Positions 143 through 14,008 are shown, numbered from the stretch's first letter. The stretch is DNA of 64,000 bases from Candidatus Omnitrophota bacterium (GCA_015233115.1 JADFYJ010000001.1:67084-131083), one strand, 5' to 3'. A program made the numbers and translations. Notes: generated by a model not told the origin, from the sequence alone.

Positions 143-1006
143 ATGAGACATAACACGGATTGGTTTGACAACAAGCATTCACTGATCATTATGGTCGGGG
201 CGGCGTTATTGGTGATTCTTTTGGCCGTTAATTTTTTGTCAAATGATACGCCTGACCGCGCGCATGTGTTGCGGATTTCGGGGCCGGTGGTGATCGAGCG
301 AGCCGGAGAAAAAATTATACCTAGCGCTGGTATGCTTTTAAATGGCCAGGATAAAATTTTGACCGGCGAGGGATCATTTGTCGAAGTCGCTTATGATGAT
401 AATTTTAAGGATGTGGTCCGCATTGAAGCCAATTCTAAAGTTGTTTTTGAAAGCGCCAGGATCGAAAAGCAAACCACGCTTTTCATGGATCGCGGGGAAA
501 TGAAATTAAAATTAGATAAATTGGAAAAAGGCTCTACGTTTAAAGTCCGCACGCCCGTCGCGATTGCCGGTGTCAGAGGAACGGCTTTCGGAATGAAATT
601 TCAGGGGGATCAGGTTGTGATCACGGATTTTGAAAGTAAAATATTTGTCAAAGGATTAAATGATAATTTTGTGGAGATGAAGGACGAGCTTTTATTAAAT
701 GACGGATGGAAAGTCCGGGTTGCGCAATTCGAAAAACCGTCGCGGGTCGAGCGGATGACGGATGACGAGCATCTTTTATGGCAATCCTGGTTAAATGAAA
801 TTAACTCTTTACCTAAGGATAGTCTTGTGAATAATAGCTCTTACTCGAACTTCGCGGACATGAAAGAGTCTTTAACGCGCCGGGCCGCTTCTCAGTTATC
901 ACTGATCATAACCCGCACGGCTTCTTCAGCGTCAACGCTGGCCGTCATGCTGTTCGCGGTTTTAGTTCTTGGAACAGGAAAGGTAGTGGAAAAAGTATGG
1001 GCATAA
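143..1006 (+). CDS. FecR-domain protein with an N-terminal transmembrane segment (anti-sigma/iron-signalling-like)
   Basis: TPVAIAGVRGTAFGM motif typical of the FecR domain. There is an N-terminal hydrophobic helix. The ORF abuts the next gene. Confidence 0.55.
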   Translation: MRHNTDWFDNKHSLIIMVGAALLVILLAVNFLSNDTPDRAHVLRISGPVVIERAGEKIIPSAGMLLNGQDKILTGEGSFVEVAYDDNFKDVVRIEANSKVVFESARIEKQTTLFMDRGEMKLKLDKLEKGSTFKVRTPVAIAGVRGTAFGMKFQGDQVVITDFESKIFVKGLNDNFVEMKDELLLNDGWKVRVAQFEKPSRVERMTDDEHLLWQSWLNEINSLPKDSLVNNSSYSNFADMKESLTRRAASQLSLIITRTASSASTLAVMLFAVLVLGTGKVVEKVWA

Positions 1007-1752
1007 CGAAAATAGTTGAACATGATGAGCATATTGAACAATTGTGGTATATGAAGGAACAGGGTGAGGTTTCCGTTGATTTTTTAAAAACGTCAATGGG
1101 AAATACTTATAATGAAAAAGTGATTGAAGAGCTTTTTAACAGCGGCTTGATTGATTTAAGTCAAAACGCTTTGATTATTAAACTGTCCGACGATGGAGAA
1201 GCCCGCGCCCGTCAATTGATCAGAGCTCACCGTTTAGCGGAACGTTTAATCGCGGATGTTTTGGGCGGAGGGGGAACTGATCTGGAAAAAATTGCGTGTG
1301 AATTTGAACATACAGTTTCAGCCGAATTAGTCAATAGCATCTGTACTTTGTTAGGCCACCCGAAAGAATGCCCGCATGGTATGCCAATTCCTGAGGGAGA
1401 GTGTTGCCGTCTGGCTTTAAAAACTGAGTTGAGTTTGATCGTGCCTTTATCTGATCTTAAATTGGGAGAAACAGCCCGCATTGCATATATTAACTGCCGT
1501 AATGATCAGCAGATTCATAAACTTGAGGGATTGTGTATCAGGCCGGGCGTGATTGTTAAACTTCACCAAAATTACCCGACTTATGTTATTGAATGCGAGG
1601 GCGCCAGCATTGCCTTGGATAAAGAAGTGATCGCGAATATTTGCGTTTGGAAAAATGCTCAGCCTTCGGTTAGCGCGGCGGATCAGAAAAAATTGGATAA
1701 AAAAAATAACGGCAAAAGTTTGAGTAAATTTTTTCACCTTTTTAAAAAATGA
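997..1752 (+). CDS. DtxR/MntR-family metal-dependent transcriptional repressor with a C-terminal FeoA (SH3-like) domain
   Basis: RAHRLAERLIADVLG followed by EHTVSAELVN...HGMPIP matches the DtxR metal-site and dimerisation region. The C-terminal LKLGETARI...GVIVKL segment is a FeoA-like fold. Confidence 0.8.
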   Translation: MGITKIVEHDEHIEQLWYMKEQGEVSVDFLKTSMGNTYNEKVIEELFNSGLIDLSQNALIIKLSDDGEARARQLIRAHRLAERLIADVLGGGGTDLEKIACEFEHTVSAELVNSICTLLGHPKECPHGMPIPEGECCRLALKTELSLIVPLSDLKLGETARIAYINCRNDQQIHKLEGLCIRPGVIVKLHQNYPTYVIECEGASIALDKEVIANICVWKNAQPSVSAADQKKLDKKNNGKSLSKFFHLFKK

Positions 1753-1762
1753 GGAGAATTTC

Positions 1763-2932
1763 ATGGAGCAGCAATTAGAAGAGTTGCGTTTAAAAGAGAA
1801 GAAGCTGATTTATTTACTCGGTGAGACCATGTTTAATTTGTATAAGTCTCAAGGCGTGCGTTTTCTTTATACCTCTGCCGGTGAAGAAAAAGAAAAGGAG
1901 GTGACAAAATTAGTCAGATTGTTGGATTATATCGAGGACCGAATCGTTAAAATAGAAGAAATTTACAACGAGGAAGATGCGGAAGATGAAGCGGAATGTG
2001 AATGTGAATGTACAGAATGCGAATCAGAAGAAATGGAAGATAGCGCTGAAGACATGGCTGAAGCGGTAGCTGTTGAACCTGATTCCGAAATTATTTTAGG
2101 CGAAGAATCGCCCAAACAGGATGATGTCGTGGCTTTGGCTGAAAAACTGCTTCGACCCGATAAAGAAGTAGAATTAGAAGTAGAAATGATTACTCCGGTT
2201 GAGGCGGTAATCATGGACACGGTTGAAAATATATCGACTCCGGATTTGCCGATTGTTCAAGAAACCGCGGAGTCAACAGACGTGCTGCAAAATATTCTAG
2301 AATCTGCCGTGTTTGTTTCTGAGGCGGATAAAAATCTTTTTGAAAAAAATGTCAAACAGTATAAAAAAGGAACAGAACGCGAGCGGGAAGTCAGTATAAA
2401 CCAGATTTCGCATACGGTCAGCAATGAAGAACTCAAAAAAGTGTACCTTTTTGTGATGAAAGATTCCAGCGTTGCTGTTAGGCTGGCAGTTATGAAAAAC
2501 ATTTCGAGGATGAAGGAAAACGAAACTGCCGGATTCTGGGAATTGGGTTTGCATGACTCTGATATAAAAGTTAGAACCACAGCCATCAAAGGGATCGGCA
2601 CCCATGTTACAGATGCCCACCGGGAAGTTTTGGAAAATCTTCTAAATGATAATGACCCTTTAGTGCGTGGTTTGGCTGTGACATATCTGGGTATGTATTA
2701 TGGAAAGGACGGAGTTCTTAAGGCTTTGACGGCCTGGGAGGATGAAAGTCCTTACGTGCGGACAAGTTTAATTGAAATGATGTCTATAGTGAAGCCGGAA
2801 GGCGCGCTCTTGACGATCAAAAATTTATTATCTGATACTGATGAAGGTGTTAAGAAAGAAGCTGAAAAAGCACTCAAAAAAATTATGCCGGAAAGAAAAA
2901 GGGAAGGAACTCATGACAAACGAAAACGATAA
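1763..2932 (+). CDS. HEAT-repeat (PBS-lyase-like) protein with an acidic, Cys-containing N-terminal segment (ECECECTECESEEMED)
   Basis: C-terminal repeats with (D/N)xxVRxxA periodicity (DIKVRTTAIKGIG, DPLVRGLAV, SPYVRTSLIE, DEGVKKEAEKAL). SD-like GAGGAG lies upstream. Confidence 0.6.
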   Translation: MEQQLEELRLKEKKLIYLLGETMFNLYKSQGVRFLYTSAGEEKEKEVTKLVRLLDYIEDRIVKIEEIYNEEDAEDEAECECECTECESEEMEDSAEDMAEAVAVEPDSEIILGEESPKQDDVVALAEKLLRPDKEVELEVEMITPVEAVIMDTVENISTPDLPIVQETAESTDVLQNILESAVFVSEADKNLFEKNVKQYKKGTEREREVSINQISHTVSNEELKKVYLFVMKDSSVAVRLAVMKNISRMKENETAGFWELGLHDSDIKVRTTAIKGIGTHVTDAHREVLENLLNDNDPLVRGLAVTYLGMYYGKDGVLKALTAWEDESPYVRTSLIEMMSIVKPEGALLTIKNLLSDTDEGVKKEAEKALKKIMPERKREGTHDKRKR

Positions 2933-3383
2933 AAAATCAGGTAAAGAGAATTTTTTAAAAACCGTTTCCTACGGAACCGGAATAATCTGCAAGAAAGTCG
3001 CCGGCATTGGTAAAGTTGCGCAAACGAAACAATGGAAGAATGTTGTATCATCGACTCATAAATTATGTGATAAGGTTGGAACGAAAACCATGACGGTGGT
3101 GGAAAAAGTAAAGACCTCGGTTAAAAAAGGCACCAAAGATATCAGCAAATCTTTTGCCGCAGGGATGGAATCGGTCGAGAAAAAAGAAACAGCCAAAGAG
3201 ACGGCAATGTCTGTTAAAAAAACCGTAACTCCGGCGAAAAAGGTTGCTTCCAAAACCGCGGGCAAGCCTAGAACTGCGGCGAAAAAAAATGCGCGTAAAG
3301 CGGCGGTTGAAAAAAATGTTCCGATTAACGTTGATTTAGAAAAAGAGATTGATAGTATAACGATGGGCGTTAAAGAATCTTAA
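2913..3383 (+). CDS. Lysine-rich basic low-complexity protein (histone-H1-like composition)
   Basis: ORF 2841..3383. The internal Met at 2913 avoids a 90-nt out-of-frame overlap with the preceding gene. Composition is K/A/T/V-rich. Confidence 0.4.
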   Translation: MTNENDKKSGKENFLKTVSYGTGIICKKVAGIGKVAQTKQWKNVVSSTHKLCDKVGTKTMTVVEKVKTSVKKGTKDISKSFAAGMESVEKKETAKETAMSVKKTVTPAKKVASKTAGKPRTAAKKNARKAAVEKNVPINVDLEKEIDSITMGVKES

Positions 3384-3386: not shown

Positions 3387-3520
3387 GGTATGTGGCATGT
3401 AGTATGTAGTTAAAACGATAGATTGGAAAAACGATTACTAAAATCATATGTTTTAGATGTTTTGTTTTTTAAAAATGATAAATTTTTTTGCGACATGCAA
3501 CATGCTACGAACGACATACT
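3387..3520. repeat. Composite intergenic element made of a TATGTRG heptamer array, a GGAAAAACGATTA core, an AT-rich spacer and an inverted heptamer array
   Basis: ggtatgtggcatgtagtatgtagtt at 3387-3411 and its inverted counterpart cgacatgcaacatgctacgaacgacatact at 3491-3520. The core ttggaaaaacgattact lies at 3423-3439. Confidence 0.8.
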
Positions 3521-3532
3521 TTTAAAATTAGG

Positions 3533-5551
3533 ATGCGCAGCATAATGGCCAAAAAAAACAAGCAAGAGATTCTTCAGGAATGCGACACCCAGTTTGATTC
3601 TCTATTTACATCTTTTGGTAAATTGTTGTATGAGAACATTCAAGCTGGTGGCATCTCCTTTTATTTTGATCCTCCGGACGCTGTTTTGACTGCTAGGGCA
3701 AAGCGTTATATCCGGGATATTGTGGTGCAAAAAATTTCTGACAAAAAAGTCAAACCAATGCCGCAAAAAACTGTTCCTAAAGTTGTTCCTAAAGCTGTTC
3801 CAAAAGTTGTGGCTGTGCCGGTTTTGAAACCTAAAAAAAATCAGGTTACGGCTATTTTCAATGGCGCGAAAAATGTTATTATGGGTAAACGGAAAGAAAA
3901 TAAACCGGCCTCTTTAGGCATAGACCGCCGGGGGCAGTTAGAATCATACACGCATTTGGTCGTTGATCTCCATGTCTTTGCCAAAAAGCTTTCTCTCGTT
4001 CAGAAAGATTTTAATCAATGTATTATTAAGGATCTTTTAAGCTCGCCTGGAGAGCAGATTTCATCTTATCAATCGGCGGTTGACGAAAAAATCCGGGAGA
4101 TCATATTATTGATGGCTAAGAAGCAGGAGGTTATAAAAACGATTATGGAAAAGAAAAGACAATTCTTTGCGGAACATACTGGAGCCAAAATGTGGAAACC
4201 CGAAGAAGATTTTTTGAAGCAGGTGCAACAGGACGCGGTTGAAACCACACAACGTATTGATGGTTTAATCAGTGAAGTGGTTGACCTTTTTAAAAACATT
4301 AAAGAACTTTATGATCATGACCTTGAACAGCACCGCTTAGTTCAGGAACAGGAAAAATTGCGGCAAGATTTGGTATCAACGTTTCCTGATTCATCTGTAT
4401 CTTCAGAGATTGACTTGCCAGTTTTGGAAAACACGCCGGAAGAAATTCCTGAATCTTTGGCTGTTTTAGAATCTATTTCTAAAAGTGTACCTGAAGAATC
4501 AGAACAACCTGAACTGCTCGAACCACCAGAACATCTTGAACAGCCAGAACAGCCCGATGAACAAGTGATCATGGTTCCGATCGCGGAACAACAGATCGAT
4601 CAAATTACTGAACAGGAACCGATCCGTCCCACTGAAGAAATTCTGGAGGAAGTGGAAGATTATGGATTGTTCGAAACGGCTGCGCGAAAGTTAGGAAGCG
4701 AAGTTGTAGATAAAGACCAAAAACTTGAAATTTTGCATATGCTCTTTCGCAATTCACCGAAAAAAGTCGTGCCGTTCTTATATGAATTTGTCAGGGATGC
4801 GGATATATTTCCAAAACGTCAATTGTTATTTTTATTAAATATGTTGGATTATCCGGCTATGGTTGGTGTTTACCGCCGATTTGTAACGGATGAAAATTCG
4901 TCAATGCGTCTGCAGGGAGTAATGGGTTTAGTCAAGTTAGATTCTATTGAATCAAAACAAGTGATCGCGACAGCCATTCATGATCGCGATCCGCATATTC
5001 GTAGATTTATTGTGAACCATTTAGATCACAGGGGTAGTGATCCTGAAGCGACAGCGATCGGGCGTTTAGCTGGCGACAGCGATGAGAATGTCGCGCGGAT
5101 TGCCATCCGTAAATTAGGATTAATGGGGAATCATTTCGCGTTTGTCTCTTTAGTTCCCAAGCTTGAGTCTCCGAATATTAAGATCCGTAAAGAAGTTATT
5201 AGTGCTTTGAAAGTCCTGACAGGCACAGATCTCGGATATAATTATGCCGCGACTGACAGTGAATTAAAACGTCATGTCCAGCCGTGGAAGACTTTGGCTA
5301 AGGAAAGTTATATGCATCCTCGTTTGTTACGGGATTTGAAATTAAAACATCTTCCGGCGCCGGGCACACCCAGACTCCAGACTGTAATTTCTAAAGAACC
5401 AAAAAAAACATCTGTAACTTCACAGAGGTCAGTGGTGGCAAAGAAAAAGACTCCGGTCGTGGCCCCCAAAAAAATATTTGCTCCTGCAAAAAGTTCGCAA
5501 CGGATGGCAGTGGTTGTAAATAAAAAAACTGTTAAAAAGAATAAAAGATGA
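3533..5551 (+). CDS. HEAT-repeat protein with KVVPK tandem repeats and an acidic Pro/Glu-rich linker
   Basis: C-terminal HEAT-like repeats (DPHIRRFIVNHL, DENVARIAIRKLG, NIKIRKEVISAL). The start is placed after the inverted heptamer array (ORF opens at 3488), so it is uncertain (3533 or 3545). Confidence 0.55.
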   Translation: MRSIMAKKNKQEILQECDTQFDSLFTSFGKLLYENIQAGGISFYFDPPDAVLTARAKRYIRDIVVQKISDKKVKPMPQKTVPKVVPKAVPKVVAVPVLKPKKNQVTAIFNGAKNVIMGKRKENKPASLGIDRRGQLESYTHLVVDLHVFAKKLSLVQKDFNQCIIKDLLSSPGEQISSYQSAVDEKIREIILLMAKKQEVIKTIMEKKRQFFAEHTGAKMWKPEEDFLKQVQQDAVETTQRIDGLISEVVDLFKNIKELYDHDLEQHRLVQEQEKLRQDLVSTFPDSSVSSEIDLPVLENTPEEIPESLAVLESISKSVPEESEQPELLEPPEHLEQPEQPDEQVIMVPIAEQQIDQITEQEPIRPTEEILEEVEDYGLFETAARKLGSEVVDKDQKLEILHMLFRNSPKKVVPFLYEFVRDADIFPKRQLLFLLNMLDYPAMVGVYRRFVTDENSSMRLQGVMGLVKLDSIESKQVIATAIHDRDPHIRRFIVNHLDHRGSDPEATAIGRLAGDSDENVARIAIRKLGLMGNHFAFVSLVPKLESPNIKIRKEVISALKVLTGTDLGYNYAATDSELKRHVQPWKTLAKESYMHPRLLRDLKLKHLPAPGTPRLQTVISKEPKKTSVTSQRSVVAKKKTPVVAPKKIFAPAKSSQRMAVVVNKKTVKKNKR

Positions 5552-5886
5552 CCAATACGATAAAACAAACACCAACTAAAAGAGCTCCCCGTAAAACCGC
5601 GGCTGTAAAAAAATCCATGACCGGAATTGGCACCCGTATGTCGGAAAGCGCGGAACGCGTCGCGGATATTATTCTTGAGGATAATCCCGGGGAAAAAAAA
5701 TCTAAAACGAAAAAAATTACTGACGAAACTCTTACGATGTTTAAGAGTGTGGCAGAACAAGTCAGAACCAATCTGAAAGATGTGCGTCCACAGGATTTTG
5801 TGGGCGATTTAGCTTATGGCGCAGGCAGAATTTCAGGAGCGACCAAACGAGCGCTGAGCCGCTTATATGATAATTTAACTGATTAA
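5548..5886 (+). CDS. Small basic hypothetical protein
   Basis: ORF start overlaps the stop of the upstream gene (ATGA). No recognisable motif. Confidence 0.4.
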   Translation: MTNTIKQTPTKRAPRKTAAVKKSMTGIGTRMSESAERVADIILEDNPGEKKSKTKKITDETLTMFKSVAEQVRTNLKDVRPQDFVGDLAYGAGRISGATKRALSRLYDNLTD

Positions 5887-6066: not shown

Positions 6067-6249
6067 ATGAATAATAAATTTTTTAACGATCTTGGCCAGC
6101 AATTTTACGCGTGGTACCGGGACCATAAAATTCGTTTTGAATATGGCGGGCAAAGTAAGGACCTGGAGCTAGAAGTTGAACGCATTACAGGACTTATAAA
6201 TTATGTAGAGAAGAAAAAAGCGTCACTTCTTGACAAAAAAATAATTTGA
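6067..6249 (+). CDS. Small hypothetical protein (60 aa)
   Basis: Isolated ORF with an upstream GGGTGAGGGG SD-like sequence. No motif. Confidence 0.3.
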   Translation: MNNKFFNDLGQQFYAWYRDHKIRFEYGGQSKDLELEVERITGLINYVEKKKASLLDKKII

Positions 6250-6361
6250 AATAATACGTATAACTTCTTGATTTTGTTTTTGTTTCTCTTTATAATAAGT
6301 GCAGTTTATAGATAATTCATTTAATTTTCTAAACAAAGCACCCGTTTTCGACGAGGAATTT

Positions 6362-7441
6362 ATGCCAACAGAAAAAACAGCAGCTGGTTCCAATGATTTC
6401 GCGCGCTTTTTAGGATCAACTATCCGACGAGTGGAAAATGATTTCAAATTTTTGACTTTATTCCCTAAGCGTCCATTGCCTAAACCTGTGGCCGTGAAAA
6501 AAGAAATTCCGATTGCTGCTGTTTCCGTTCCTGTTCCCGTTGTTGCAAAGCCTTTGCCGTCGGTGACTTCAGTTAAAATTAATATTCCCGAGCCGGTTAT
6601 TTTTGAAAAAACCAAACCCGCTGTCCCCCATGCTGAAGCGTCACCGGTTGCCGTGGAAAAAATAATTCCCTTGTCAGCTGAAGAGAAAAAATATATTAGC
6701 AAAGAACAAGGATTAAAAAATATTACGTTTGTTAATAAGGCCGAACAAGTTAAAGCGGAAATTTATTTCCGTGATTTACAGTCGTCCAGCCGAGCTTTGC
6801 GTGTTGATGCCTTGCGTGAGATCAGGAAGCTTTCACGGCCGACAGTTATAGCGATATTGGAACAACTCTTGTCCGTCGAAACAGATACGTTACAGATTAT
6901 CGAATTGGTTAATGCTTTAGCCGCGGTTAGTGAAGACACCCAAATCCCTAAAAATTTATTCCGAAAATATATTTCTCATCCTGATGCCGGCATTCGTTTA
7001 GCGGCACTGCGGGCCATTTCAAAATACCGGGATGAAGAAAGTTTTAATGTTTTAACGACCTATCTAAAAGATAAAGATTCGGAAGTCCGCCGGCAAATGA
7101 TTAATTGTTTATGCTGGTCCTTCGGTGAACGCTGTCTGCCGTACGTGATTGTCGCGTTGCATGATTCTGATCCCATTGTCCGTAAGGCGGCCACCCAGAT
7201 TGCCGGTGTTTTAAAATCTAAGCAGGCGATTTCTTCCTTGATTACTCTATTGAGCGATCAGCATGAAGAAGTTCAGTCCGGCGCGGCAGCCGCTTTGAAA
7301 AAAATAACCAAAGAAGATTTTGATTTCAAGGTGACAGGGACAAAAAGAGAAAAAGATGATGCTATCGAATCCTGGCGTTTTTGGTGGAGAGAAAACCAAA
7401 CCCAATTCGAACGAGCTAAAGATAAATTTGTAATTAAATAA
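6362..7441 (+). CDS. HEAT-repeat protein with a Pro/Val-rich N-terminal half
   Basis: HEAT-like repeats (DAGIRLAALRAI, DSEVRRQMINCL, DPIVRKAATQIAG, HEEVQSGAAAALKKI). GAGGAA SD precedes the internal Met at 6362 (ORF opens at 6299). Confidence 0.55.
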   Translation: MPTEKTAAGSNDFARFLGSTIRRVENDFKFLTLFPKRPLPKPVAVKKEIPIAAVSVPVPVVAKPLPSVTSVKINIPEPVIFEKTKPAVPHAEASPVAVEKIIPLSAEEKKYISKEQGLKNITFVNKAEQVKAEIYFRDLQSSSRALRVDALREIRKLSRPTVIAILEQLLSVETDTLQIIELVNALAAVSEDTQIPKNLFRKYISHPDAGIRLAALRAISKYRDEESFNVLTTYLKDKDSEVRRQMINCLCWSFGERCLPYVIVALHDSDPIVRKAATQIAGVLKSKQAISSLITLLSDQHEEVQSGAAAALKKITKEDFDFKVTGTKREKDDAIESWRFWWRENQTQFERAKDKFVIK

Positions 7442-7665: not shown

Positions 7666-8040
7666 ATGGCTGTCAATAAATCAACTTTTAAAAAATGTTC
7701 GGTCAAGGGTTGCCGCAATAAAGGACTGGCTAATGGCCGCTGTCTAAAGCATGCTAAGATCTCTGCGTCAACGCATGTCGCTCCTGTTAAAAGAACTGTA
7801 TCGCATATCAAAAAGGTACGCGCGGCGCATGTTGAACATGTTAAAGAACCAGAAGTAAAAGTGGTTCATGCCGCGCCAGAAGAGAAAAAAGTATTAAAGC
7901 TTGAAGCGCCAGCGGTTATGAAACATAAAGAACAAAAAGTTTCTGGCCGACATAAAGGACCCCTTAATTCTGTTTGTTATTGGGCCGGTACGTTTTTTAG
8001 CGACACGACGGAGATTTTTAAAATACAAAAGGCGAAATAA
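7666..8040 (+). CDS. Basic zinc-ribbon-like protein (CxxC...CxxH)
   Basis: KKCSVKGCRNKGLANGRCLKHAK cysteine/histidine pattern. Lys-rich. Sits within the + strand operon. Confidence 0.4.
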   Translation: MAVNKSTFKKCSVKGCRNKGLANGRCLKHAKISASTHVAPVKRTVSHIKKVRAAHVEHVKEPEVKVVHAAPEEKKVLKLEAPAVMKHKEQKVSGRHKGPLNSVCYWAGTFFSDTTEIFKIQKAK

Positions 8041-8043: not shown

Positions 8044-8814
8044 ATGATGAGACGAATATGTGTCGCGAATCAAAAGGGCGGGGTTGCTAAAACTACGACC
8101 TCATTAAATTTGGCGGCTGAACTGGCGCGGGCAGGTAAAAAAGTTGTTTTGATCGACATGGATCCTCAGTTTTCTTCGACGGCAGCCATTTTTGGCAATC
8201 AACGTTTTGAATTTAATATTTATAATGTCATTGTTGATAAGATGGATATCCATTCGGTTATCCAGCATTCAGACGCTTTTGGCATTGACGTTGTGCCAAG
8301 CGATATTGAATTGTCCGGCGCTTCCTTGAGGATTAATGAGCAGATCGGGCGGGAAAAAGTTTTGTACCATTATACCCGCAAACTGAAATATGATTATATG
8401 ATCGTGGACGCGCCGCCGTCTTTGGGCTTGCTAACTGTCAACGCTTTGACCGCGTGCGATGAACTGCTGGTTCCGATTTGTCCTGAATTTTTTTCGTTAA
8501 AGGGGATTAAACTTCTGGAAGAGATAGTGGAGAATGTACGGGTCGGGTTAGGGTGCGATATTAAAATTACGGGTGTGGTGATTACGCGTTATCGCGAAAG
8601 GTTAGTGACGAATGAAGCGAGGAACGCGATCAGAAATTATTTTGGCAAGAAAGTATTTAAAATTGAAATTCCTGAAAATATAAAGTTAGAAGAAGCTCAC
8701 AACGCCCATCTGCCGGTGTATAAGTACGATGTGAAATCAAAGGGGGCGGAAGCGTACCATCAATTAGCAAAGGAGATTATGAATGGGAGATTCCAGAAAA
8801 ATCCAAGCAAGTAA
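8044..8814 (+). CDS. ParA/MinD-family P-loop ATPase
   Basis: Deviant Walker A NQKGGVAKTTTSLNLA, then LIDMDPQ, then IVDAPPSLG. Classic ParA/Soj arrangement. Confidence 0.85.
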   Translation: MMRRICVANQKGGVAKTTTSLNLAAELARAGKKVVLIDMDPQFSSTAAIFGNQRFEFNIYNVIVDKMDIHSVIQHSDAFGIDVVPSDIELSGASLRINEQIGREKVLYHYTRKLKYDYMIVDAPPSLGLLTVNALTACDELLVPICPEFFSLKGIKLLEEIVENVRVGLGCDIKITGVVITRYRERLVTNEARNAIRNYFGKKVFKIEIPENIKLEEAHNAHLPVYKYDVKSKGAEAYHQLAKEIMNGRFQKNPSK

Positions 8815-9604
8815 GGAGACGGATACGACATCAAGAAGAAAAAAGCTTATTGATAATCCGCTTCTTCAATCAACTGTAAGAATGTCTTCGCACCGGGACA
8901 GCGAACCTGAACTTGCGTCCAGGTCTTCCATCCGTTCCGCGGTAAGGCAGATTAAAGATTCGACTAAGTACATCATGTCTCCTGATGAAGAAAAGGCCAG
9001 TGTTTTTGAAATTATTTCAGATTTAGAAAAACAGCTGGATGCCGCGTTTAGCATTAAAGATGCTCAGGAAAATGAAATCCAGAGTTTGAATACCAAAGTT
9101 GATAATGCTCAGGAGAAAGCCGGGATGCTAGAGGCTAAACTCAAAGAGATGAAAGGTTTGCTGGTTTCTCAGGAAGAATTGAATTCTGAGTTGGAATTTC
9201 TCGAGAATGAACGTTTGGAAACAGTCGGCAAAACCAAGTCTTTGGAAGAAGATTTGGTAGGGCGCGAAGCTGTTATTAAAGATCTGGAAAATAAAATTGC
9301 TTCCCTTCAAAAGGAATGTGAAAGCCGGGATACCAGAATAGAACAAATCGAACTGGAACTTTCCAGCGCGAATAAAACGATTCAAAGTTTTCATCATCAG
9401 ATCTCGCTATTGGAAGATGAGAAAGAAGCAGTTACCAATAAACTTGAAAAAACTGACGGTGAACTGAGCAGTACTATTACCGAGCGTGATCAGCTTAAAC
9501 GTGAGTTAGAACGCGCTAAAGAAAGTCTGGACGAGATTCGTTTGATGTTAGCCGATACTCGCTCCCGCGCGCGCGAACATTATTACAAACCAAAAGGAAA
9601 ATAG
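8783..9604 (+). CDS. Coiled-coil protein
   Basis: Heptad-rich E/K/L composition throughout (LEAKLKEMKGLLVSQEELNSELEFLENERLE...). Start uncertain (the ORF overlaps the parA-like stop). Confidence 0.5.
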   Translation: MGDSRKIQASKETDTTSRRKKLIDNPLLQSTVRMSSHRDSEPELASRSSIRSAVRQIKDSTKYIMSPDEEKASVFEIISDLEKQLDAAFSIKDAQENEIQSLNTKVDNAQEKAGMLEAKLKEMKGLLVSQEELNSELEFLENERLETVGKTKSLEEDLVGREAVIKDLENKIASLQKECESRDTRIEQIELELSSANKTIQSFHHQISLLEDEKEAVTNKLEKTDGELSSTITERDQLKRELERAKESLDEIRLMLADTRSRAREHYYKPKGK

Positions 9605-9624: not shown

Positions 9625-10617
9625 ATGGGACAGCCTAAAGGCTTAGATGTGGGTACGATGAACCTGGTAGGCGCGGAACAAGGCGCTGACGGCAAGATTA
9701 AGTTGAAATTGGTTCGTCACACTTTCTTGGATATTGACGCGAATTCTTTTACCTTGAACATGCTGAAAAAACAAAAAGTTCAGTATGCTGAAATGGGTAA
9801 AAAAGTTTATGTTTTAGGTGATTCAGCTTTTGAATTGGCTAATATCATGAATAAAACCGTCCGACGTCCAATGCAGGATGGTGTCATGAGTCCAGGCGAA
9901 GCTGATGCTCTGCCAATTTTTGGCCTTTTGATCGAAGCGGTTTTGGGCAAACCTACAGAAAAAAATCAGTTATGTTATTTCTCTGTCCCTGCAGACCCGG
10001 TCGACGCTAATTTTAATATTGTTTATCACACCAGCGTTATTATCGGCGCGCTTAAGAATTTAGGATATACTCCTAAGCCCATGAATGAAGGTCACGCGGT
10101 TGTATTCGCGGAATTAGGTGAAAAAGATTTTACCGGAATTGGTATTTCAGCCGGCGGCGGTATGTTTAATATTTGTGTTTGTTATAAAACAATTCCTGCG
10201 ATTAGTTTCGCGACCAGCCGTGCTGGTGACTGGATTGATAAAAACGTGGCGCAAGTACTCGGTATTAAAACAACTCGCGCGACCGCAATTAAAGAAAAAG
10301 GAATTAATATTTATAAGCCGGCAAACCGCGAAGAAGAAGCGGTTTGTATTTATTATCGGAATTTGATTAATTATACGTTAGTCAATATTAAGAATAAATT
10401 TGAAACAGCAGAATCAATGCCTCAATTTCCGGAACCGATTGAAATCGTGTGTGCCGGCGGTTCTTCTATGATCAACGGATTTGTGGATGTTTTTAAAGAG
10501 GAACTAAAGAAAATGACCTTCCCGATTCCGATCAGCGATGTCCGTCTAGCCAGTGAACCGTTGTACGCAACAGCAAGAGGTTGTTTGCTTGCAGGTCTAA
10601 GCGAAGTTGATGAGTAA
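9625..10617 (+). CDS. Actin-like ATPase of the MamK family (MamK/Mad28-like)
   Basis: Conserved blocks shared with MamK: GLDVGT (phosphate 1), YVLGDSAFE, RRPMQDGV, TGIGISAGGG (phosphate 2) and IVCAGGSSMINGF (adenosine motif). SD AAGGAG is upstream. Confidence 0.75.
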   Translation: MGQPKGLDVGTMNLVGAEQGADGKIKLKLVRHTFLDIDANSFTLNMLKKQKVQYAEMGKKVYVLGDSAFELANIMNKTVRRPMQDGVMSPGEADALPIFGLLIEAVLGKPTEKNQLCYFSVPADPVDANFNIVYHTSVIIGALKNLGYTPKPMNEGHAVVFAELGEKDFTGIGISAGGGMFNICVCYKTIPAISFATSRAGDWIDKNVAQVLGIKTTRATAIKEKGINIYKPANREEEAVCIYYRNLINYTLVNIKNKFETAESMPQFPEPIEIVCAGGSSMINGFVDVFKEELKKMTFPIPISDVRLASEPLYATARGCLLAGLSEVDE

Positions 10618-10739: not shown

Positions 10740-10792
10740 ATTATGTTTCGTGTCCCCTGATTAATATAACTTTCTTACGAAAGAGGGCGGGA

Positions 10793-12238
10793 GTGGGTGA
10801 AGATGAATTAGCAAAAGTCAGGGAGAGACTTTCGAAAATAAACGAAAAAATTAAGCAGTATTCCTCCGTAAAAAATCCGCAGTCTGCTAAAGAAAAACCT
10901 TTTGATTCTTCCCGATATAGACAAGGCAAAGAAATTTCTGTTGAAAAAATGCACGCTAAATTGCGGGCCATTAATCAATATGTCCGGGATCGTGCTTTAG
11001 GTAAAGATGTGGAATATCCGGTCAGGGAAGAAGTTGAAGTCGAAGAAGAAATTGAAGCCCCTGTCGCTCAACCTGCTCCCGTGCCTGAACGACGTGTAGT
11101 CCAACGGATTTCCAATGAAGTGGTTATGGAAAAGGCTGAGGCAATTGGTGAAGTGATGGATGAGTCAGCCGTCACCAAACCTGAAGAAGCCACTACCGCG
11201 GATTTGCCGGGAACTTCACGGGTTGTGGAAGCGGCGCGTCTTGGCGTCGGCCTTGATCTGGGAACCGCGTATATTGTGTCCAGCCGTGAAGTGGAAGATA
11301 AACGGGTATTTGTCAAAAATGAGCGGAATGCTTTTTTGTCGGTTCGGTGTGATACCGCGACGAAAGAACTTTTGAGCAAACTCAAAGTTAAATATGTCGC
11401 TTTGGGCGAGAAACTGTATGTTTTAGGAACTATGGCGTTGGAATTAGCGGACATGTTCGGACGTGAAACACAGCGGTCCATGAATATGGGAATTCTTAAT
11501 CCGTCAGAATCGGAATCGATTCCGATTATCAAACTTTTGGTGCAGAATATTTTGTGGGCGCCCCGTCAGCCAGGAGAAATTTGCTGTTTTTCCATTCCTG
11601 CCCAGCCTATCGACCGCGATCAAGATACGATTTATCATCGGGGAGTTTTTGAAGGAATTTTAAAGAGCATAGGTTTTGACGCGATGGTTATTGATGAAGG
11701 TTACGCGGTCGTTTTATCAGAAATGGAAAAACAAAATTTTACCGGTATAGGTGTTTCTTGCGGAGCGGGCATGGTTAATATTTGCGCAGCTTTTCAAACA
11801 GTGCCAGTATTGTCATTTTCGATTACGCGCGGTGGAGATTGGATAGATAAAAACGCGGCAACAGTTTTAGGGATTCCTACGACCAGAGTTTCATCAATCA
11901 AAGAGCACGGCATGGATTTAAAAAATCTTAAAAACCGCGAAGAAGAAGCGATCGCGATTTATTATCGTAATTATATCCATTATTTGTTAGAGAGCATGGC
12001 GAAAGTATTTGGAGACAGTGCAAACACATTAAATTTTAAGGATCCCGTGGATATTGTTTTTGCAGGCGGATCTTCGATGGTTCCGGGCTTTATTGATGTG
12101 GTCAGAGAAGAAATTAAATCTATTAAATTTGCTTTTGCCCTTGGTAATGTGACCAGAGCGGACGAGCCTTTCACGAGCGTGGTACGGGGTTGTTTGTTTA
12201 ACGCGATCAATGCGGGAAATAAAACGAATGAGTCCTGA
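10793..12238 (+). CDS. MamK-family actin-like ATPase with a ~150-aa N-terminal extension
   Basis: C-terminal 330 aa are paralogous to 9625..10617 (GLDLGTAY, YVLGTMALE, TGIGVSCGAG, IVFAGGSSMVPGF). GTG start with an upstream AAGAGGG SD. The N-terminal extension is charged with a Pro-rich stretch. Confidence 0.7.
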   Translation: MGEDELAKVRERLSKINEKIKQYSSVKNPQSAKEKPFDSSRYRQGKEISVEKMHAKLRAINQYVRDRALGKDVEYPVREEVEVEEEIEAPVAQPAPVPERRVVQRISNEVVMEKAEAIGEVMDESAVTKPEEATTADLPGTSRVVEAARLGVGLDLGTAYIVSSREVEDKRVFVKNERNAFLSVRCDTATKELLSKLKVKYVALGEKLYVLGTMALELADMFGRETQRSMNMGILNPSESESIPIIKLLVQNILWAPRQPGEICCFSIPAQPIDRDQDTIYHRGVFEGILKSIGFDAMVIDEGYAVVLSEMEKQNFTGIGVSCGAGMVNICAAFQTVPVLSFSITRGGDWIDKNAATVLGIPTTRVSSIKEHGMDLKNLKNREEEAIAIYYRNYIHYLLESMAKVFGDSANTLNFKDPVDIVFAGGSSMVPGFIDVVREEIKSIKFAFALGNVTRADEPFTSVVRGCLFNAINAGNKTNES

Positions 12239-12821
12239 CATTTCAGGTTTGACCGAAGATCCGGAAATTTTGGTACAAAAATATTCCAAACGCTTAGATG
12301 ATATCCGTATGGCACGGCATCAATTGGACGGCGAATTTTTAACCACGAATACATCTCTCAATGATTTTATCTCTTCCACCGATGCGGTTATTCACCGTTT
12401 GATGACTAAAAAAGCAGAACCTAAAAAAATGACGATTGTCCCATCGGCTGACGTCATTTCCTCTCAGCCGCCGTTAGTCGCGCCAGCTGGCGGACAAGCG
12501 ATGACGCTAGAGGATTTTAAAACTCATATGGGGTCGATTTTGCAAGGTTCTTTGGAAGCGGCTACGGATAAGATTTCTAATCGCATCCAAGGGATGCTGA
12601 AAGAATTAAGAGGATTGTCCGGCCCCGCGCGCGACGCGAAATATCGCGAGATCCAGCAGGTCGCTGAATATGAAATGATTGATATTTCTCAACTTTATAA
12701 ACATGAAGAAGTACAAAGTAATTTAGGCGAAATCGGGGTTGCTGAAACTGAAACTAAAAGTATCGACGCGAATTTGGAGCGCCTGCGTAAAATGCGCGGC
12801 TCGAAACCTAAAAAAGAGTAA
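12210..12821 (+). CDS. Hypothetical protein
   Basis: ORF overlapping the stop of the upstream gene. An alternative start lies at 12228. No motif. Confidence 0.45.
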   Translation: MREIKRMSPDISGLTEDPEILVQKYSKRLDDIRMARHQLDGEFLTTNTSLNDFISSTDAVIHRLMTKKAEPKKMTIVPSADVISSQPPLVAPAGGQAMTLEDFKTHMGSILQGSLEAATDKISNRIQGMLKELRGLSGPARDAKYREIQQVAEYEMIDISQLYKHEEVQSNLGEIGVAETETKSIDANLERLRKMRGSKPKKE

Positions 12822-12835
12822 CAAAAGAGAACGAT

Positions 12836-14008
12836 ATGATTATAATTTTTGGTGTTTTGATATTTTTGGCTTCATTGGCATTAATTGATTTTGTTTTTCT
12901 ATTTCAAGACATCCTTAAACTAGAAAAAGCAGCTAAGGGTCAGGGCGATGGTGAACATAGCGATGTGACCCGTTTAAAGCAGGATTTAGAGTTCAAGGTT
13001 AATGAGTTATCAGCGAAAGAACAAGAGATCCGGCGTATTACGTCTGATTTAACCAGACTGCAAAATCAGCAAAAAAGCGTTATGCTGGAAGCAGAATCAG
13101 CCTCTGCAAAAGATAATGAAATCAAACGCCTGACCATTGAGTTAGCGCATATGACGGATCAAGCCAAAGAAATTGCTAAAGTAAAAACCGATTTATCCGC
13201 TGCTCTTTCAGAAACGCAGGATTATAAAAATAAGGTTGAACAGATTCGGCTCGAGTACGACAAAATTAAAGCTGAACTTACCAAAAAAATTGCTGAAGGC
13301 TCGACCGCGAATACGGCTAGCCAGGAATATGAAAAAAACATTCAACAATTAAACGCGGAAGCTAAGAAATTTAAAAGTGAGCTGGACAGCAAGATCAATG
13401 AGCTTATTCTTGCTCAGACAGATGCACAAGAAAATAAGAAAAAATTGGTTCAGGTTCAAGCTGACTATGACAAACTGAAAGTTGACTTAAATCTTAAGAT
13501 CACTGAAGGCACTGCTGCACAAGCCACATCGGAAGCGTCCCAAGAAAATCTTCGCCAGCTTCATAATGAACTCAAAAAATTAAAAAATGATTTAGAACTT
13601 AAAACCACTGAGTTGGCAGATAAAGATATAGAAGTTAAAACAGTTGCCGCGGAATTGGCTAAAATACAATATCAGCAAAAAAACGCGGTTAAAAGTAGTC
13701 AGGATTTGACTGAAGGTTTAAGTAAGCTTAAGAAAACTGCCGACGAATTAGATTTAATTGAAAAGTCTTTGGATGAAGAAAAAAAAGCTTTGTATGAAAT
13801 GAAAACCCGGTTTCAGGAAGGCAAAATGAAACTAGGACTTTTGAGTGAAAAAAGTAAAGAATCGGTGGAACTCATCGCCCAGTTTGCTGAAGGCAAAGAA
13901 TTTGAAGAATTCCGCAAATCCATCCACATGGACGAGATCATTAATAAATATGAAGGTGAAATTAAAAGTTTAAAGTTGAAGGTTTTAGATCTCGAAAAAA
14001 AAGTTTAA
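12836..14008 (+). CDS. Membrane-anchored coiled-coil protein
   Basis: N-terminal hydrophobic helix IIIFGVLIFLASLALIDFVFLF followed by about 350 aa of heptad-rich coiled coil. Confidence 0.55.
   Translation: MIIIFGVLIFLASLALIDFVFLFQDILKLEKAAKGQGDGEHSDVTRLKQDLEFKVNELSAKEQEIRRITSDLTRLQNQQKSVMLEAESASAKDNEIKRLTIELAHMTDQAKEIAKVKTDLSAALSETQDYKNKVEQIRLEYDKIKAELTKKIAEGSTANTASQEYEKNIQQLNAEAKKFKSELDSKINELILAQTDAQENKKKLVQVQADYDKLKVDLNLKITEGTAAQATSEASQENLRQLHNELKKLKNDLELKTTELADKDIEVKTVAAELAKIQYQQKNAVKSSQDLTEGLSKLKKTADELDLIEKSLDEEKKALYEMKTRFQEGKMKLGLLSEKSKESVELIAQFAEGKEFEEFRKSIHMDEIINKYEGEIKSLKLKVLDLEKKV

What the first reader, a model, noticed from the sequence alone, without database searches (positions are those of the whole stretch)
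143..14008. Actin/ParA/HEAT-repeat/coiled-coil cluster resembling the accessory (mad-type) part of a magnetosome gene cluster
About 14 kb of same-strand genes run in this order:
- a FecR-domain protein and a DtxR-FeoA iron-responsive repressor;
- three HEAT/PBS-lyase-like repeat proteins carrying acidic, Lys-rich and Pro-rich low-complexity modules;
- a 61-aa membrane protein, a zinc-ribbon protein and a ParA/MinD ATPase;
- a coiled-coil protein, two tandem MamK-family actins, a hypothetical protein and a membrane-anchored coiled-coil protein.

The MamK-like blocks (Y-V-L-G-D-x-A-F-E and R-x-P-M-Q-D-G-V) are seen directly. In magnetotactic Deltaproteobacteria, Nitrospirae and Omnitrophica, a HEAT-repeat protein (Mad23), coiled-coil proteins, a second MamK-like actin (Mad28) and a ParA-like ATPase are co-clustered next to the mamAB genes. 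This is recalled from Lefevre et al. (2013) and has not been re-checked.

No MamB/M/E/A/Q/O/P-like gene is in the window. This is therefore either the distal part of a magnetosome cluster whose core lies upstream of position 1, or an uncharacterised cytoskeletal organelle- or DNA-positioning system that reuses the same parts.
Basis: partly seen in the sequence, partly recalled or inferred. Interest (0 to 1): 0.85.

Follow-up and report, generated by a model that had tools for sequence, protein, structure and literature searches.

The report
Accessory half of an Omnitrophota magnetosome cluster

Summary
All 16 genes are collinear in at least seven other Omnitrophota genomes.

The window comes from a 269-kb contig of an NCBI 'Candidatus Omnitrophica' MAG with locus-tag prefix HQL26. 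That prefix falls in the HQL11-HQL30 series, which appears to correspond to the 20 Omnitrophota magnetotactic genomes of Lin et al. 2020.

In the closest relatives, the array follows directly after this gene series: mamI, mamE, mamP (with a magnetochrome domain), mamM, mamB, mamA, mamQ, a MamN-like gene, a TauE gene and feoB. On the window's own contig, a MamB orthologue sits 16 protein accessions upstream of the inferred accession of the first gene.

One correction is needed. The two actins are not MamK-family. They belong to the Mad28/'Volactin' family (Pfam PF25216, 265-276 bits; NCBIfam MamK only 30 bits against a cut-off of 400). No MreB-type MamK was found in any fetched Omnitrophota locus.

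- HEAT-C matches the Nitrospirota gene at the Mad23 position (E = 6e-23).
- The ParA is Soj-type and only weakly like the Nitrospirota ParA at the Mad29 position.
- Orthology of the coiled-coil proteins to Mad24-26 could not be tested.

The array is a separable module. It lies about 37 kb from the mam core in one genome, and next to PBP2-RodA in another.

The parts
2..38 (+). GC hairpin (2-23) followed by a T-run (31-38). It looks like the terminator of the upstream gene, which would mean the array starts its own transcript.
   Evidence: Sequence read. The fold is -15.3 kcal/mol with z = -1.95, so support is weak.
88..125 (+). Four to five tandem copies of the 8-nt unit GTTACTNN, immediately upstream of the FecR start codon. 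This may be a regulator-binding array. It is specific to this genome.
   Evidence: One search finds 13 matches in the window against 0.11 expected. The other copies are at 52576-52629 and 52819-52848. None occur in the fetched loci.
143..1006 (+). FecR-domain membrane protein with N- and C-terminal hydrophobic segments. It is the first gene of the array.
   Evidence: Pfam FecR, 48.7 bits. TM-like segments at residues 10-35 and 259-283. Homologues were found in only 11 GTDB species genomes, all Omnitrophota MAGs and nearly all from the Lin magnetic-enrichment series.
997..1752 (+). DtxR/MntR-type metal-dependent repressor with a C-terminal FeoA (SH3-like) domain.
   Evidence: Pfam Fe_dep_repr_C 81 bits and FeoA 38.6 bits. 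NCBIfam MntR and DtxR are the best hits. The exact protein is MBF0477921.
1763..2932 (+). HEAT-A, a Mad23-like HEAT-repeat protein. It has a short N-terminal helical domain, a long acidic linker (net charge -34) and C-terminal HEAT repeats.
   Evidence: Pfam HEAT_2, 60.7 bits. Match to the Nitrospirota Mad23-position protein, E = 8e-8. Charge.
2841..3383 (+). Lys-rich small protein (24% Lys, net charge +29). The true start is probably the ATG at 2913.
   Evidence: ORF. Conserved after HEAT-A in the relatives at 31-47% identity. Composition.
3488..5551 (+). HEAT-B, the second Mad23-like HEAT protein, carrying Lys/Pro-rich and acidic low-complexity modules. The start is probably the ATG at 3545.
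   Evidence: Pfam HEAT_2, 36.4 bits. Match to the Nitrospirota Mad23-position protein, E = 1e-13. 34-54% identity in the relatives.
5548..5886 (+). 112-aa basic protein following HEAT-B.
   Evidence: Conserved in all relatives at 34-59% identity. It shares the AKK-type repeat with the Lys-rich ORF (repeat family D1).
6067..6249 (+). 60-aa protein resembling the N-terminal domain of HEAT-A. It is the last gene of module 1.
   Evidence: blastp against HEAT-A residues 19-60, E = 5e-5. 41-76% identity in the relatives. It stays with the mam core in L017.
6299..7441 (+). HEAT-C, the closest match to Mad23 and the first gene of module 2.
   Evidence: Pfam HEAT_2, 77 bits. 30% identity over 207 aa, E = 6e-23, to the HEAT protein at the Mad23 position in Nitrospirota MGC L026.
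7465..7650 (+). 61-aa single-pass membrane protein.
   Evidence: TM-like segment at residues 3-22. 39-70% identity in the relatives.
7666..8040 (+). 124-aa Lys-rich protein with a variable CCCH knuckle and a conserved C-terminal motif. It is a candidate partner of the ParA.
   Evidence: Alignment of 7 orthologues. No Pfam family matched.
8044..8814 (+). Soj-type ParA ATPase with a deviant Walker A motif (KGGVAKTT).
   Evidence: Pfam AAA_31, 170 bits. PDB matches: ParA 8RAY 184 bits and Thermus Soj 160 bits. 75-89% identity in the relatives. Only the P-loop region matches the Nitrospirota ParA at the Mad29 position (E = 1.5e-4).
8783..9604 (+). 273-aa coiled-coil protein with a basic N-terminus. 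Its gene overlaps the ParA 3' end by 32 nt.
   Evidence: Coordinates. Only sub-threshold Pfam hits to coiled-coil families such as Tropomyosin. 54-75% identity in the relatives.
9625..10617 (+). Actin 1, a Mad28/Volactin-family actin without an N-terminal extension. It is highly conserved.
   Evidence: Pfam Volactin, 265 bits. NCBIfam MamK only 30 bits against a cut-off of 400. 38% identity to the Nitrospirota Mad28-position protein. The model has pLDDT 89, and its best TM-score is to the MamK filament, 0.74. 60% identity to a Planctomycetota actin.
10793..12238 (+). Actin 2, a paralogue with 42% identity to actin 1. It has a roughly 150-aa N-terminal extension carrying two conserved helical motifs.
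   Evidence: Pfam Volactin, 276 bits. The exact protein is HQL26_00455 / MBF0477933. N-terminal motifs.
12210..12821 (+). 203-aa conserved protein of unknown fold.
   Evidence: 38-50% identity in the relatives. No Pfam hit.
12836..14008 (+). Membrane-anchored coiled-coil protein. It is the last gene of the array.
   Evidence: TM-like segment at residues 1-27. SMC-like coiled-coil hits. The exact protein is HQL26_00465.

Best explanation
Window 143-14008 is the accessory, chain-organising part of the magnetosome gene cluster of an uncultured magnetotactic Omnitrophota bacterium (MAG with locus prefix HQL26). The biomineralisation core (mamI/E/P/M/B/A/Q, a MamN-like gene and a TauE gene) lies upstream on the same contig. 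In the relatives feoB sits directly before FecR; it could not be seen on this contig.

**Proposed working. These steps are inferred, not shown.**
- **Iron regulation.** The FecR-domain membrane protein and the DtxR-type repressor couple iron status to expression.
- **HEAT adaptors.** Three Mad23-like HEAT proteins, each followed by a small basic protein, act as adaptors. They would link magnetosome-membrane proteins to one another and to filaments. This follows Mad23 in Desulfovibrio magneticus RS-1, which joins crystals into sub-chains.
- **Actin filaments.** The two Mad28-family actins polymerise into the filament or filaments that align and localise the chain. They would stand in for a MamK gene, which was not found in these clusters.
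- **ParA positioning.** The Soj-type ParA would work with the translationally coupled basic coiled-coil protein, and perhaps with the Lys-rich 124-aa protein. Together they would position or partition the chain relative to the nucleoid, as ParA/adaptor pairs do for carboxysomes.
- **Membrane tether.** The membrane-anchored coiled-coil protein tethers the assembly.
For: **Source**
- Actin 2 is 100% identical to HQL26_00455 on a 269,155-bp contig.
- Window proteins are MBF0477921 to MBF0477968, in ascending order along the window.
- The MamB orthologue P0241 is MBF0477904, on a contig of the same length.
- Sister MAG names (nDJH13bin20 and others) match the naming of the Lin 2020 magnetotactic set. 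That set includes 20 Omnitrophota genomes (PMC7602337).

**Synteny**
- The whole array is collinear in seven or more genomes.
- It is directly preceded by the mam core plus feoB in L012, L010 and L025.
- The best NCBIfam hits of those upstream genes are MamP, MamM, MamB, MamA, MamQ and MamN. Pfam finds the magnetochrome and MamI domains.

**Homology to mad genes.** The Nitrospirota MGC L026 follows the published gene order (PMC9376291).
- It has a Volactin-family actin and a ParA-like gene beside mamK, and a HEAT protein at the Mad23 position.
- Actin 1 and actin 2 are 38% and 35% identical to that actin (E = 2e-66 and 1e-62).
- HEAT-C matches that HEAT protein at E = 6e-23.

**Function of homologues**
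- RS-1 genetics and two-hybrid data cover Mad20/23/25/26, Mad28 and MamK (PMC12748827).
- Mad28 forms filaments in vivo and has a MamK-like fold (PMC10653835).
- My model of actin 1 has pLDDT 89. Its best TM-score is to the MamK filament 5LJV.
Against: **The upstream DNA was not read.**
- The link to mamB on the window's own contig rests on contig length and accession numbering.
- The FecR accession (MBF0477920) is inferred rather than looked up.

**The array is separable from mam genes.**
- It lies about 37 kb from the mam core in the L003/L017 contig.
- It sits directly after PBP2-RodA, with no FecR, DtxR or FeoB, in L027.
- It does not follow the mam core in the closed genome CP070807.

**The actin family is not specific to magnetotactic bacteria.**
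- Actin 1 is 60% identical to single-copy actins of Planctomycetota that sit among housekeeping genes.
- A crude NJ tree does not place the Omnitrophota actins as sister to the Nitrospirota Mad28-position protein.

**Other gaps.**
- The ParA matches the Nitrospirota Mad29-position ParA only at the P-loop.
- My Mad23, Mad28 and Mad29 references are identified by position and domain, not by a deposited name.
- No experiment exists for any Omnitrophota protein.
Confidence: 0.87

Rival explanations
1. The HEAT/ParA/coiled-coil/actin array is a general cytoskeletal system of Omnitrophota and the wider PVC group, serving cell shape, division or nucleoid positioning. On this view it merely lies beside the magnetosome genes in some genomes and is not dedicated to magnetosomes.
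For: - Actin 1 is 60% identical to single-copy Planctomycetota actins in housekeeping neighbourhoods.
- The Pfam family is named after an archaeal cell-shape actin (PMC10869688).
- In L027 the array follows PBP2 and RodA.
- It is unlinked from the mam core in L003/L017 and in L028.
- The ParA is Soj-like.
- Actin-2-type N-terminal motifs occur in a Verrucomicrobiota protein.
Against: - In seven or more genomes from magnetically enriched samples, the array is contiguous and co-directional with mamAB and feoB.
- The L003/L017 genome, where the array is unlinked, still carries a full mam core on the same contig.
- At least ten long contigs carry both the actins and MamB.
- The numbers of Omnitrophota actin-1-type and MamB-type 90% clusters are similar, about 58 and 57.
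- HEAT-C is specifically closer to the Nitrospirota Mad23-position protein (89 bits) than to generic HEAT or PBS-lyase models (about 31 bits).
- A Volactin-family actin plus a ParA also lie inside a Nitrospirota MGC.
Confidence: 0.1
2. It is a DNA-partition locus for a chromosome or plasmid, using a ParA and actin-like segregation ATPases as ParM or AlfA systems do.
For: A Soj-type ParA with a classical deviant Walker A motif. Actin-fold ATPases lie adjacent.
Against: - No ParB or centromere-like repeat array lies in or near the cluster.
- The contig is 269 kb of chromosomal-type genes.
- The actins are not close to ParM-type proteins. The nearest solved sequences and folds are MamK and MreB.
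- Synteny is with mam genes.
Confidence: 0.02

Closest known systems
Omnitrophota-type magnetosome gene clusters (Lin et al. 2018, ISME J, PMC5955933; Lin et al. 2020, Microbiome, PMC7602337)
   Same: Same phylum and same collinear gene array. The window's MAG carries the HQL26 prefix, within the HQL11-HQL30 'Candidatus Omnitrophica' series. The sister MAGs (nDJH13bin20, nDJH2bin18, nDJH15bin6, MBPbin6, Cal1bin1) are named in those studies' style.
   Different: Nothing essential differs. On this contig 16 protein accessions separate MamB from the inferred FecR accession, against 9 genes in nDJH13bin20. Window bases 1-142 are intergenic rather than the end of feoB.
Mad23/Mad25/Mad26/Mad28 chain-organisation module of Desulfovibrio magneticus RS-1 (Russell et al. 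2025, PMC12748827) and mad23-26, mad28, mad29 of Nitrospirota
   Same: The kinds of parts match: a HEAT protein with a short coiled coil, long coiled-coil proteins, a non-MamK actin, and a ParA-like ATPase next to the actin. Homology is measurable for the actins and for HEAT-C.
   Different: - There are three HEAT paralogues, each with a small basic partner ORF.
- There are two tandem actins, and no MreB-type MamK was found in the cluster.
- The ParA is Soj-type and barely similar to the Nitrospirota one.
- FecR and DtxR genes head the array.
- Orthology of the coiled-coil proteins to Mad24-26 cannot be shown.
MamK (Pfam MreB_Mbl; NCBIfam NF040964; PDB 5LJV)
   Same: Actin fold. MamK is the best TM-score among solved structures (0.74) and the best solved-sequence match (E = 1.6e-6).
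   Different: - NCBIfam MamK scores only 30 bits against a cut-off of 400.
- There is no Pfam MreB_Mbl hit.
- Identity to a Nitrospirota MamK is 24% over half the length (E = 3e-4).

Volactin (Haloferax volcanii cell-shape actin; Pfam PF25216)
   Same: Both window actins match the Pfam model end to end at 265-276 bits.
   Different: These are bacterial, duplicated, and embedded in a magnetosome cluster. I found no paper among the 17 mentioning volactin that is about magnetotactic bacteria.
ParA/adaptor organelle-positioning pairs (McdA-McdB for carboxysomes), cited from general knowledge
   Same: A ParA-type ATPase sits next to a small protein with a basic N-terminus and a coiled coil, inside an organelle gene cluster. 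The two genes overlap.
   Different: No sequence relationship to McdB was tested. The ParA keeps the classical signature lysine. The function is purely inferred.

Membership tests
Magnetosome gene cluster (accessory mad region) | Physical linkage to mamAB-type core genes (MamB/M CDF transporters, MamA TPR, MamQ LemA, MamE protease, MamI, MamP with magnetochrome) | tested here: met
   Shown directly in syntenic relatives L012, L010, L025 and L017. It is indirect for the window's own contig: the MamB orthologue MBF0477904 is on a 269,155-bp contig in the same accession block as window proteins MBF0477921-968.
Magnetosome gene cluster (accessory mad region) | The host is a magnetotactic bacterium | not testable with these tools
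   Support is indirect only. The locus-tag series HQL11-HQL30 and the sister MAG names match the magnetically enriched metagenomes of Lin et al. 2020. No microscopy exists for this organism.
Mad28 (second actin of deep-branching magnetotactic bacteria) | An actin-fold protein, distinct from MamK, encoded in or near the MGC and homologous to Mad28 of Nitrospirota or Desulfobacterota | tested here: met
   - Identity to the Volactin-family actin at the mad28 position of Nitrospirota MGC L026 is 38% and 35% (E = 2e-66 and 1e-62).
- The E-value against MamK from the same locus is only 3e-4.
- The actin fold is modelled at pLDDT 89.
- Caveat: the reference is identified by position and domain, not by name. 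The NJ tree does not resolve orthology.
MamK | Membership of the MamK/MreB-type family (NCBIfam NF040964 cut-off 400 bits; Pfam MreB_Mbl) | tested here: not met
   NCBIfam MamK scores 30.2 and 29.2 bits. There is no MreB_Mbl hit at E below 0.01. No MamK-like ORF occurs in any Omnitrophota locus.
Mad23 | A HEAT-repeat protein with a short coiled-coil or low-complexity N-terminal part, encoded in the MGC | tested here: met
   HEAT-C is 30% identical over 207 aa (E = 6e-23) to the 533-aa HEAT protein that follows mamO-Cter in L026. HEAT-B gives 1e-13 and HEAT-A gives 8e-8. Pfam HEAT_2 matches all three.
Mad29 | Homology to the ParA-like ATPase encoded next to mad28 | tested here: inconclusive
   The superfamily and the genomic position match. 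The window ParA aligns only over the 47-residue P-loop region (E = 1.5e-4); some orthologues reach 29% identity over 149 residues.
Mad24/Mad25/Mad26 coiled-coil proteins | Sequence homology to the named coiled-coil Mad proteins | not testable with these tools
   I could obtain no reference sequences for Mad25 or Mad26. The partial Mad24-position ORF and the two coiled-coil proteins in L026 give only chance-level matches.
Mad17/Mad30 (FeoB/FeoA of MGCs) | feoB and feoA homologues inside the MGC | tested here: inconclusive
   FeoB directly precedes FecR in the relatives, but it is not in the window. The only FeoA-type domain is the C-terminal SH3-like domain of the DtxR repressor.
Pfam Volactin (PF25216) | Score above the gathering threshold (35 bits) over the full model | tested here: met
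   265.3 and 276.2 bits, covering model positions 3-321 of 321.
ParA/Soj ATPases | A deviant Walker A motif (KGGxxK[ST]) and full-length similarity to Soj | tested here: met
   The motif KGGVAKTT is at residues 11-18. Thermus Soj 1WCV scores 160 bits and ParA 8RAY scores 184 bits over residues 2-249.

The most novel reading that the evidence does not exclude
In Omnitrophota the magnetosome chain may be organised without any MamK, by a self-contained and transposable cytoskeletal module: HEAT adaptors, a Soj-type ParA with a basic coiled-coil partner, and two Mad28/Volactin-family actins.

On this reading the first actin is the orthologue of a highly conserved 'housekeeping' actin of Planctomycetota and other PVC bacteria. 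Two consequences would follow.
- Mad28 would be a recruit from a widespread, uncharacterised bacterial actin family that is related to archaeal volactin.
- What has been listed as Omnitrophota 'MamK' would be misassigned.
Probability: 0.25. Interest if true: 0.6.

Novelty: already known. Interest (0 to 1): 0.3.

Why it matters
The result confirms that reading raw sequence can pick out the accessory half of a magnetosome cluster even when no mam gene is visible. It also corrects the family assignment of the actins.

For specialists there are three modest but useful points.
- **No MamK found.** The Omnitrophota clusters seen here carry two Mad28-type actins and no MreB-type MamK.
- **Family link.** The Mad28-position actin of Nitrospirota falls in the same Pfam family as archaeal volactin and as a very conserved actin of non-magnetotactic Planctomycetota.
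- **Mobile module.** The HEAT/ParA/actin array behaves as a module that can move independently of the biomineralisation genes.

These points bear on how magnetosome chains are built in deep-branching phyla, and on whether mamK is a safe universal marker. They do not reveal a new kind of system.

Tried and rejected
1. **Fetching the window's own contig.** Exact-protein look-ups for actin 1, FecR, actin 2/P0121 and MamB/P0241 all returned 'not on record'. I therefore could not read the upstream DNA and relied on accession numbers and contig length.
2. **Finding the genome in a collection scan.** The genome contigs and metagenome-contig scans with the FecR alignment did not find the window's genome; the best hits were 61% and 65% identical.
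3. **Finding a named Mad28.**
   - The two actin searches were saturated by unnamed Omnitrophota and Planctomycetota proteins.
   - The exhaustive representative search, followed by cluster look-ups on ten 370-430-aa representatives, gave no magnetotactic names.
   - Paper supplements held no sequences.
   - A Nitrospirota MGC reached through MamB solved the problem.
4. **Fold search.** The AlphaFold-database fold library was unavailable.
5. **Family models.** NCBIfam has no Mad models.
6. **DNA-partition reading.** I rejected it because there is no ParB or centromere-like repeat.
7. **Operon structure.** The promoter and terminator scan gave chance-level terminator counts, so it says nothing firm.
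8. **Non-coding RNA.** Rfam found only three tRNAs, all outside the cluster.

Full report
**Observation**

The ORF listing reproduces the described same-strand gene order between 143 and 14008. Pfam confirms each domain call:
- FecR
- a DtxR-type repressor with an FeoA/SH3 domain
- three HEAT-repeat proteins
- a ParA (AAA_31, 170 bits)
- two coiled-coil proteins
- two actin-fold proteins

They are a Lys-rich 180-aa protein (2841-3383), a 112-aa protein (5548-5886) and a 60-aa protein (6067-6249).

The rest of the window (14-64 kb) encodes the following, with no mam gene:
- histidine kinases and response regulators
- a GGDEF-EAL protein
- a CheB-CheR fusion kinase
- peptidases
- RecQ and Rex
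- an FeFe-hydrogenase cluster

**Source**

Actin 2 is 100% identical to 'MAG: hypothetical protein HQL26_00455 [Candidatus Omnitrophica bacterium]' on a 269,155-bp contig.

Exact look-ups place the window proteins at MBF0477921 (DtxR) to MBF0477968 (hydrogenase), ascending with window coordinates.

The closest relatives are Omnitrophota MAGs named nDJH13bin20, nDJH2bin18, nDJH15bin6, MBPbin6, Cal1bin1 and similar. These are in the naming style of the magnetically enriched metagenomes of Lin et al. 2018 and 2020. The 2020 study reports 20 Omnitrophota magnetotactic genomes. The HQL11-HQL30 prefixes seen among the hits fit that number.

**Synteny**

All 16 genes are collinear in L001/L012, L004/L015, L007, L009, L010 and L014. 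Identities to the window proteins across those loci:

| Protein | Identity |
|---|---|
| ParA | 75-89% |
| Actin 1 | 72-90% |
| 273-aa coiled coil | 54-75% |
| FecR | 52-57% |

Upstream of FecR in nDJH13bin20 and nDJH2bin18 lies the following series:
- MamI (Pfam PF26391)
- a MamE-like trypsin-PDZ protease
- MamP, with a PDZ domain and the magnetochrome domain PF18509
- two CDF transporters
- a TPR protein
- a LemA protein
- a PDZ-CitMHS transporter
- TauE
- a PDZ protein
- two unknown proteins
- FeoB

For the orthologues in L017, the best NCBIfam models are MamP (182 bits), MamM (245), MamB (231), MamA (138), MamQ (114) and MamN (237). All fall below cut-offs that were trained on Alphaproteobacteria, but each is the top hit.

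On the window's own contig, the MamB orthologue P0241 (83% identical to the nDJH13bin20 protein) is MBF0477904. That is 16 accessions before the FecR accession MBF0477920, which I inferred from its neighbour rather than looked up.

I could not read that DNA, because this assembly is not in the gene-position index.

**The actins**

Both actins match Pfam Volactin (PF25216) end to end, at 265 and 276 bits. They give no MreB_Mbl hit. NCBIfam MamK scores 30 bits against a cut-off of 400. The only solved-structure sequence match is MamK, at E = 1.6e-6 over half the protein.

An AlphaFold model of actin 1 (pLDDT 89) is a canonical actin fold. Its best TM-score is to the MamK filament 5LJV (0.74), with MreB close behind, at 17-20% identity.

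To obtain a reference, I fetched a Nitrospirota MGC through its MamB, which is deposited as 'magnetosome protein MamB', AMP41559. Its gene order matches the published Nitrospirota order (PMC9376291). It contains:
- a 408-aa Volactin-family actin, a 159-aa ORF and a 300-aa ParA-like protein. This matches the published trio 'mad28, mad29 and a hypothetical' in content, though not in order.
- an MreB_Mbl-type MamK
- a 533-aa HEAT protein after the TauE gene, which is the Mad23 position

Comparison with the window actins gives:

| Window protein | vs Nitrospirota Mad28-position actin | vs Nitrospirota MamK |
|---|---|---|
| Actin 1 | 38% identity, E = 2e-66 | E = 3e-4 |
| Actin 2 | 35% identity, E = 1e-62 | E = 0.004 |

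So the actins are Mad28-family, not MamK-family. The Mad28-position gene of Nitrospirota belongs to the Pfam Volactin family. I found no paper linking the two names among the 17 that mention volactin.

No MreB-type MamK ORF exists in any fetched Omnitrophota locus, including the complete cluster L025 + L010.

The two actins are 42% identical paralogues.
- Actin 1 is very conserved. It is 60% identical to single-copy Planctomycetota actins that sit among housekeeping genes.
- Actin 2 evolves faster. It carries a roughly 150-aa N-terminal extension with two conserved helical motifs, which also occur in a Verrucomicrobiota protein.

The family is large. It has 1151 representatives at 50% clustering with E below 1e-3. 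A crude NJ tree does not make the Omnitrophota actins sister to the Nitrospirota Mad28-position protein.

**Other parts**

*HEAT proteins.*
- HEAT-C matches the Nitrospirota Mad23-position protein at E = 6e-23 (89 bits). HEAT-B gives 1e-13 and HEAT-A gives 8e-8. Generic HEAT or PBS-lyase models score only about 30 bits.
- The 60-aa ORF resembles the N-terminus of HEAT-A (E = 5e-5).
- HEAT-A has a net charge of -34, and the ORF after it has +29. This suggests repeated adaptor-plus-basic-partner units.

*ParA and its neighbours.*
- The ParA is Soj-type: Walker A KGGVAKTT; Thermus Soj 160 bits; ParA 8RAY 184 bits.
- It is only weakly similar to the Nitrospirota ParA at the Mad29 position.
- Its gene overlaps that of a 273-aa coiled-coil protein with a basic N-terminus.
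- The preceding 124-aa Lys-rich protein has a CCCH knuckle in only 3 of 7 orthologues.

*Coiled-coil proteins.* Their relation to Mad24-26 could not be tested.

**Modularity**

- On one JGI contig (L003/L017), HEAT-C through the last coiled-coil gene lies at about 6-14 kb. The mam core together with FecR, HEAT-A, the Lys-rich ORF, HEAT-B and the 112-aa and 60-aa ORFs lies at about 41-56 kb. That block has no DtxR or FeoB.
- In L027 the whole HEAT-to-actin array follows PBP2 and RodA directly.
- In the closed genome CP070807 the mam core is not followed by the array.

This keeps alive a minority reading in which the array is a general cytoskeletal module. Four observations count against that reading:
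- the array is contiguous with mamAB and feoB in seven or more genomes;
- at least ten long contigs carry both the actins and MamB;
- the numbers of Omnitrophota actin-1-type and MamB-type clusters are similar;
- homologous parts lie inside a Nitrospirota MGC.

**Mechanism**

Function is inferred from Desulfovibrio magneticus RS-1 (PMC12748827). In RS-1:
- Mad23 joins crystals into sub-chains.
- Mad25 and Mad26 keep sub-chains linear.
- Mad28 localises the chain to the positive cell curvature.
- These proteins interact in two-hybrid assays.

Mad28 also forms filaments in vivo (PMC10653835). The roles I propose for ParA and its partner, for FecR and DtxR, and for the basic small proteins are my own inference.

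**Verdict**

The system is already known: these are published magnetotactic Omnitrophota genomes. Interest is modest.

Noticed in passing
window 88-125 (+), 52576-52629 (-), 52819-52848 (+): Tandem arrays of the 8-nt unit GTTACTNN lie in three intergenic places: just upstream of FecR, and on both sides of the 52.56-52.84 kb intergenic region before a T2SSE ATPase gene. There are 13 matches against 0.11 expected. None occur in the 27 loci fetched up to that point.
   Followed up: partly
L027 1-13100 (JGI 3300053785, Omnitrophota): The whole HEAT / ParA / coiled-coil / two-actin array sits directly downstream of PBP2 (transpeptidase) and RodA, with no FecR, DtxR, FeoB or mam gene in the 21 kb seen. 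I could not determine whether this organism has mam genes elsewhere.
   Followed up: partly
L003 (contig 1-20757) and L017 (contig 40873-61700) of Ga0209211_10000699: In this genome the cluster is split. The mam core with FecR, HEAT-A, HEAT-B and the 60-aa ORF lies about 37 kb from HEAT-C, ParA and the actins. DtxR and FeoB are absent from the mam-linked part.
   Followed up: yes
L002 and L003, low-coordinate ends: Contigs from two independent assemblies (ENA ERZ27254745 and JGI 3300025308) both end at the same point, about 9.8 kb upstream of actin 1. This suggests a repeat or a strain-variable junction there.
   Followed up: no
L005 9250-11140 (Planctomycetota GCA_046154185.1): A single-copy Volactin-family actin, 60% identical to window actin 1, lies among housekeeping genes (NDK, NFACT, HIT, malate/lactate dehydrogenase) with no ParA or HEAT neighbours.
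   Followed up: partly
P0353, P0354, P0357 (representative library): The top-scoring representatives for actin 1 are proteins of about 730-750 aa containing two actin domains in tandem. They appear to be fused versions of the tandem gene pair.
   Followed up: no
L028 (closed Omnitrophota genome CP070807.1, 96.7-117.7 kb): A compact mam core runs MamI, MamE, PDZ proteins, MamM, MamB, MamA, MamQ, PDZ-CitMHS, TauE, PDZ. It is followed by opposite-strand ECF sigma and kinase genes rather than by the feoB, FecR, HEAT and actin array.
   Followed up: no
window 14060-26561 and 30872-35443: A dense block of PAS histidine kinases, hybrid kinases and response regulators follows the array. Kinase and regulator genes follow it in every relative as well. 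This hints at a conserved signalling link, possibly to magneto-aerotaxis.
   Followed up: no
window 44948-48304: A 1118-aa fusion protein with CheB methylesterase, CheR methyltransferase, PAS and histidine-kinase domains.
   Followed up: no
window 7666-8040 and its orthologues: The C-x4-C-x9-C-x2-H knuckle of the 124-aa protein is an optional insertion, present in 3 of 7 orthologues. The conserved parts are a basic N-terminus, a V(S/T)RIKKVRA motif and a C-terminal motif approximately (K/R)G.LN.VC(F/Y).AG.
   Followed up: yes
window 26735-26819 (-), 29359-29446 (+), 43968-44052 (+): Three tRNA genes. These are the only Rfam matches in the window.
   Followed up: no
PMC10653835, Table S1A: The 'MamK' set used for ancestral reconstruction lists proteins from non-magnetotactic Planctomycetota (Phycisphaera mikurensis, strain Poly30) and an Omnitrophota protein, MBF0594750.1. 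The clusters seen here have no MreB-type MamK, so these entries may be actin-1-type (Volactin-family) proteins. I could not check this without the sequences.
   Followed up: no
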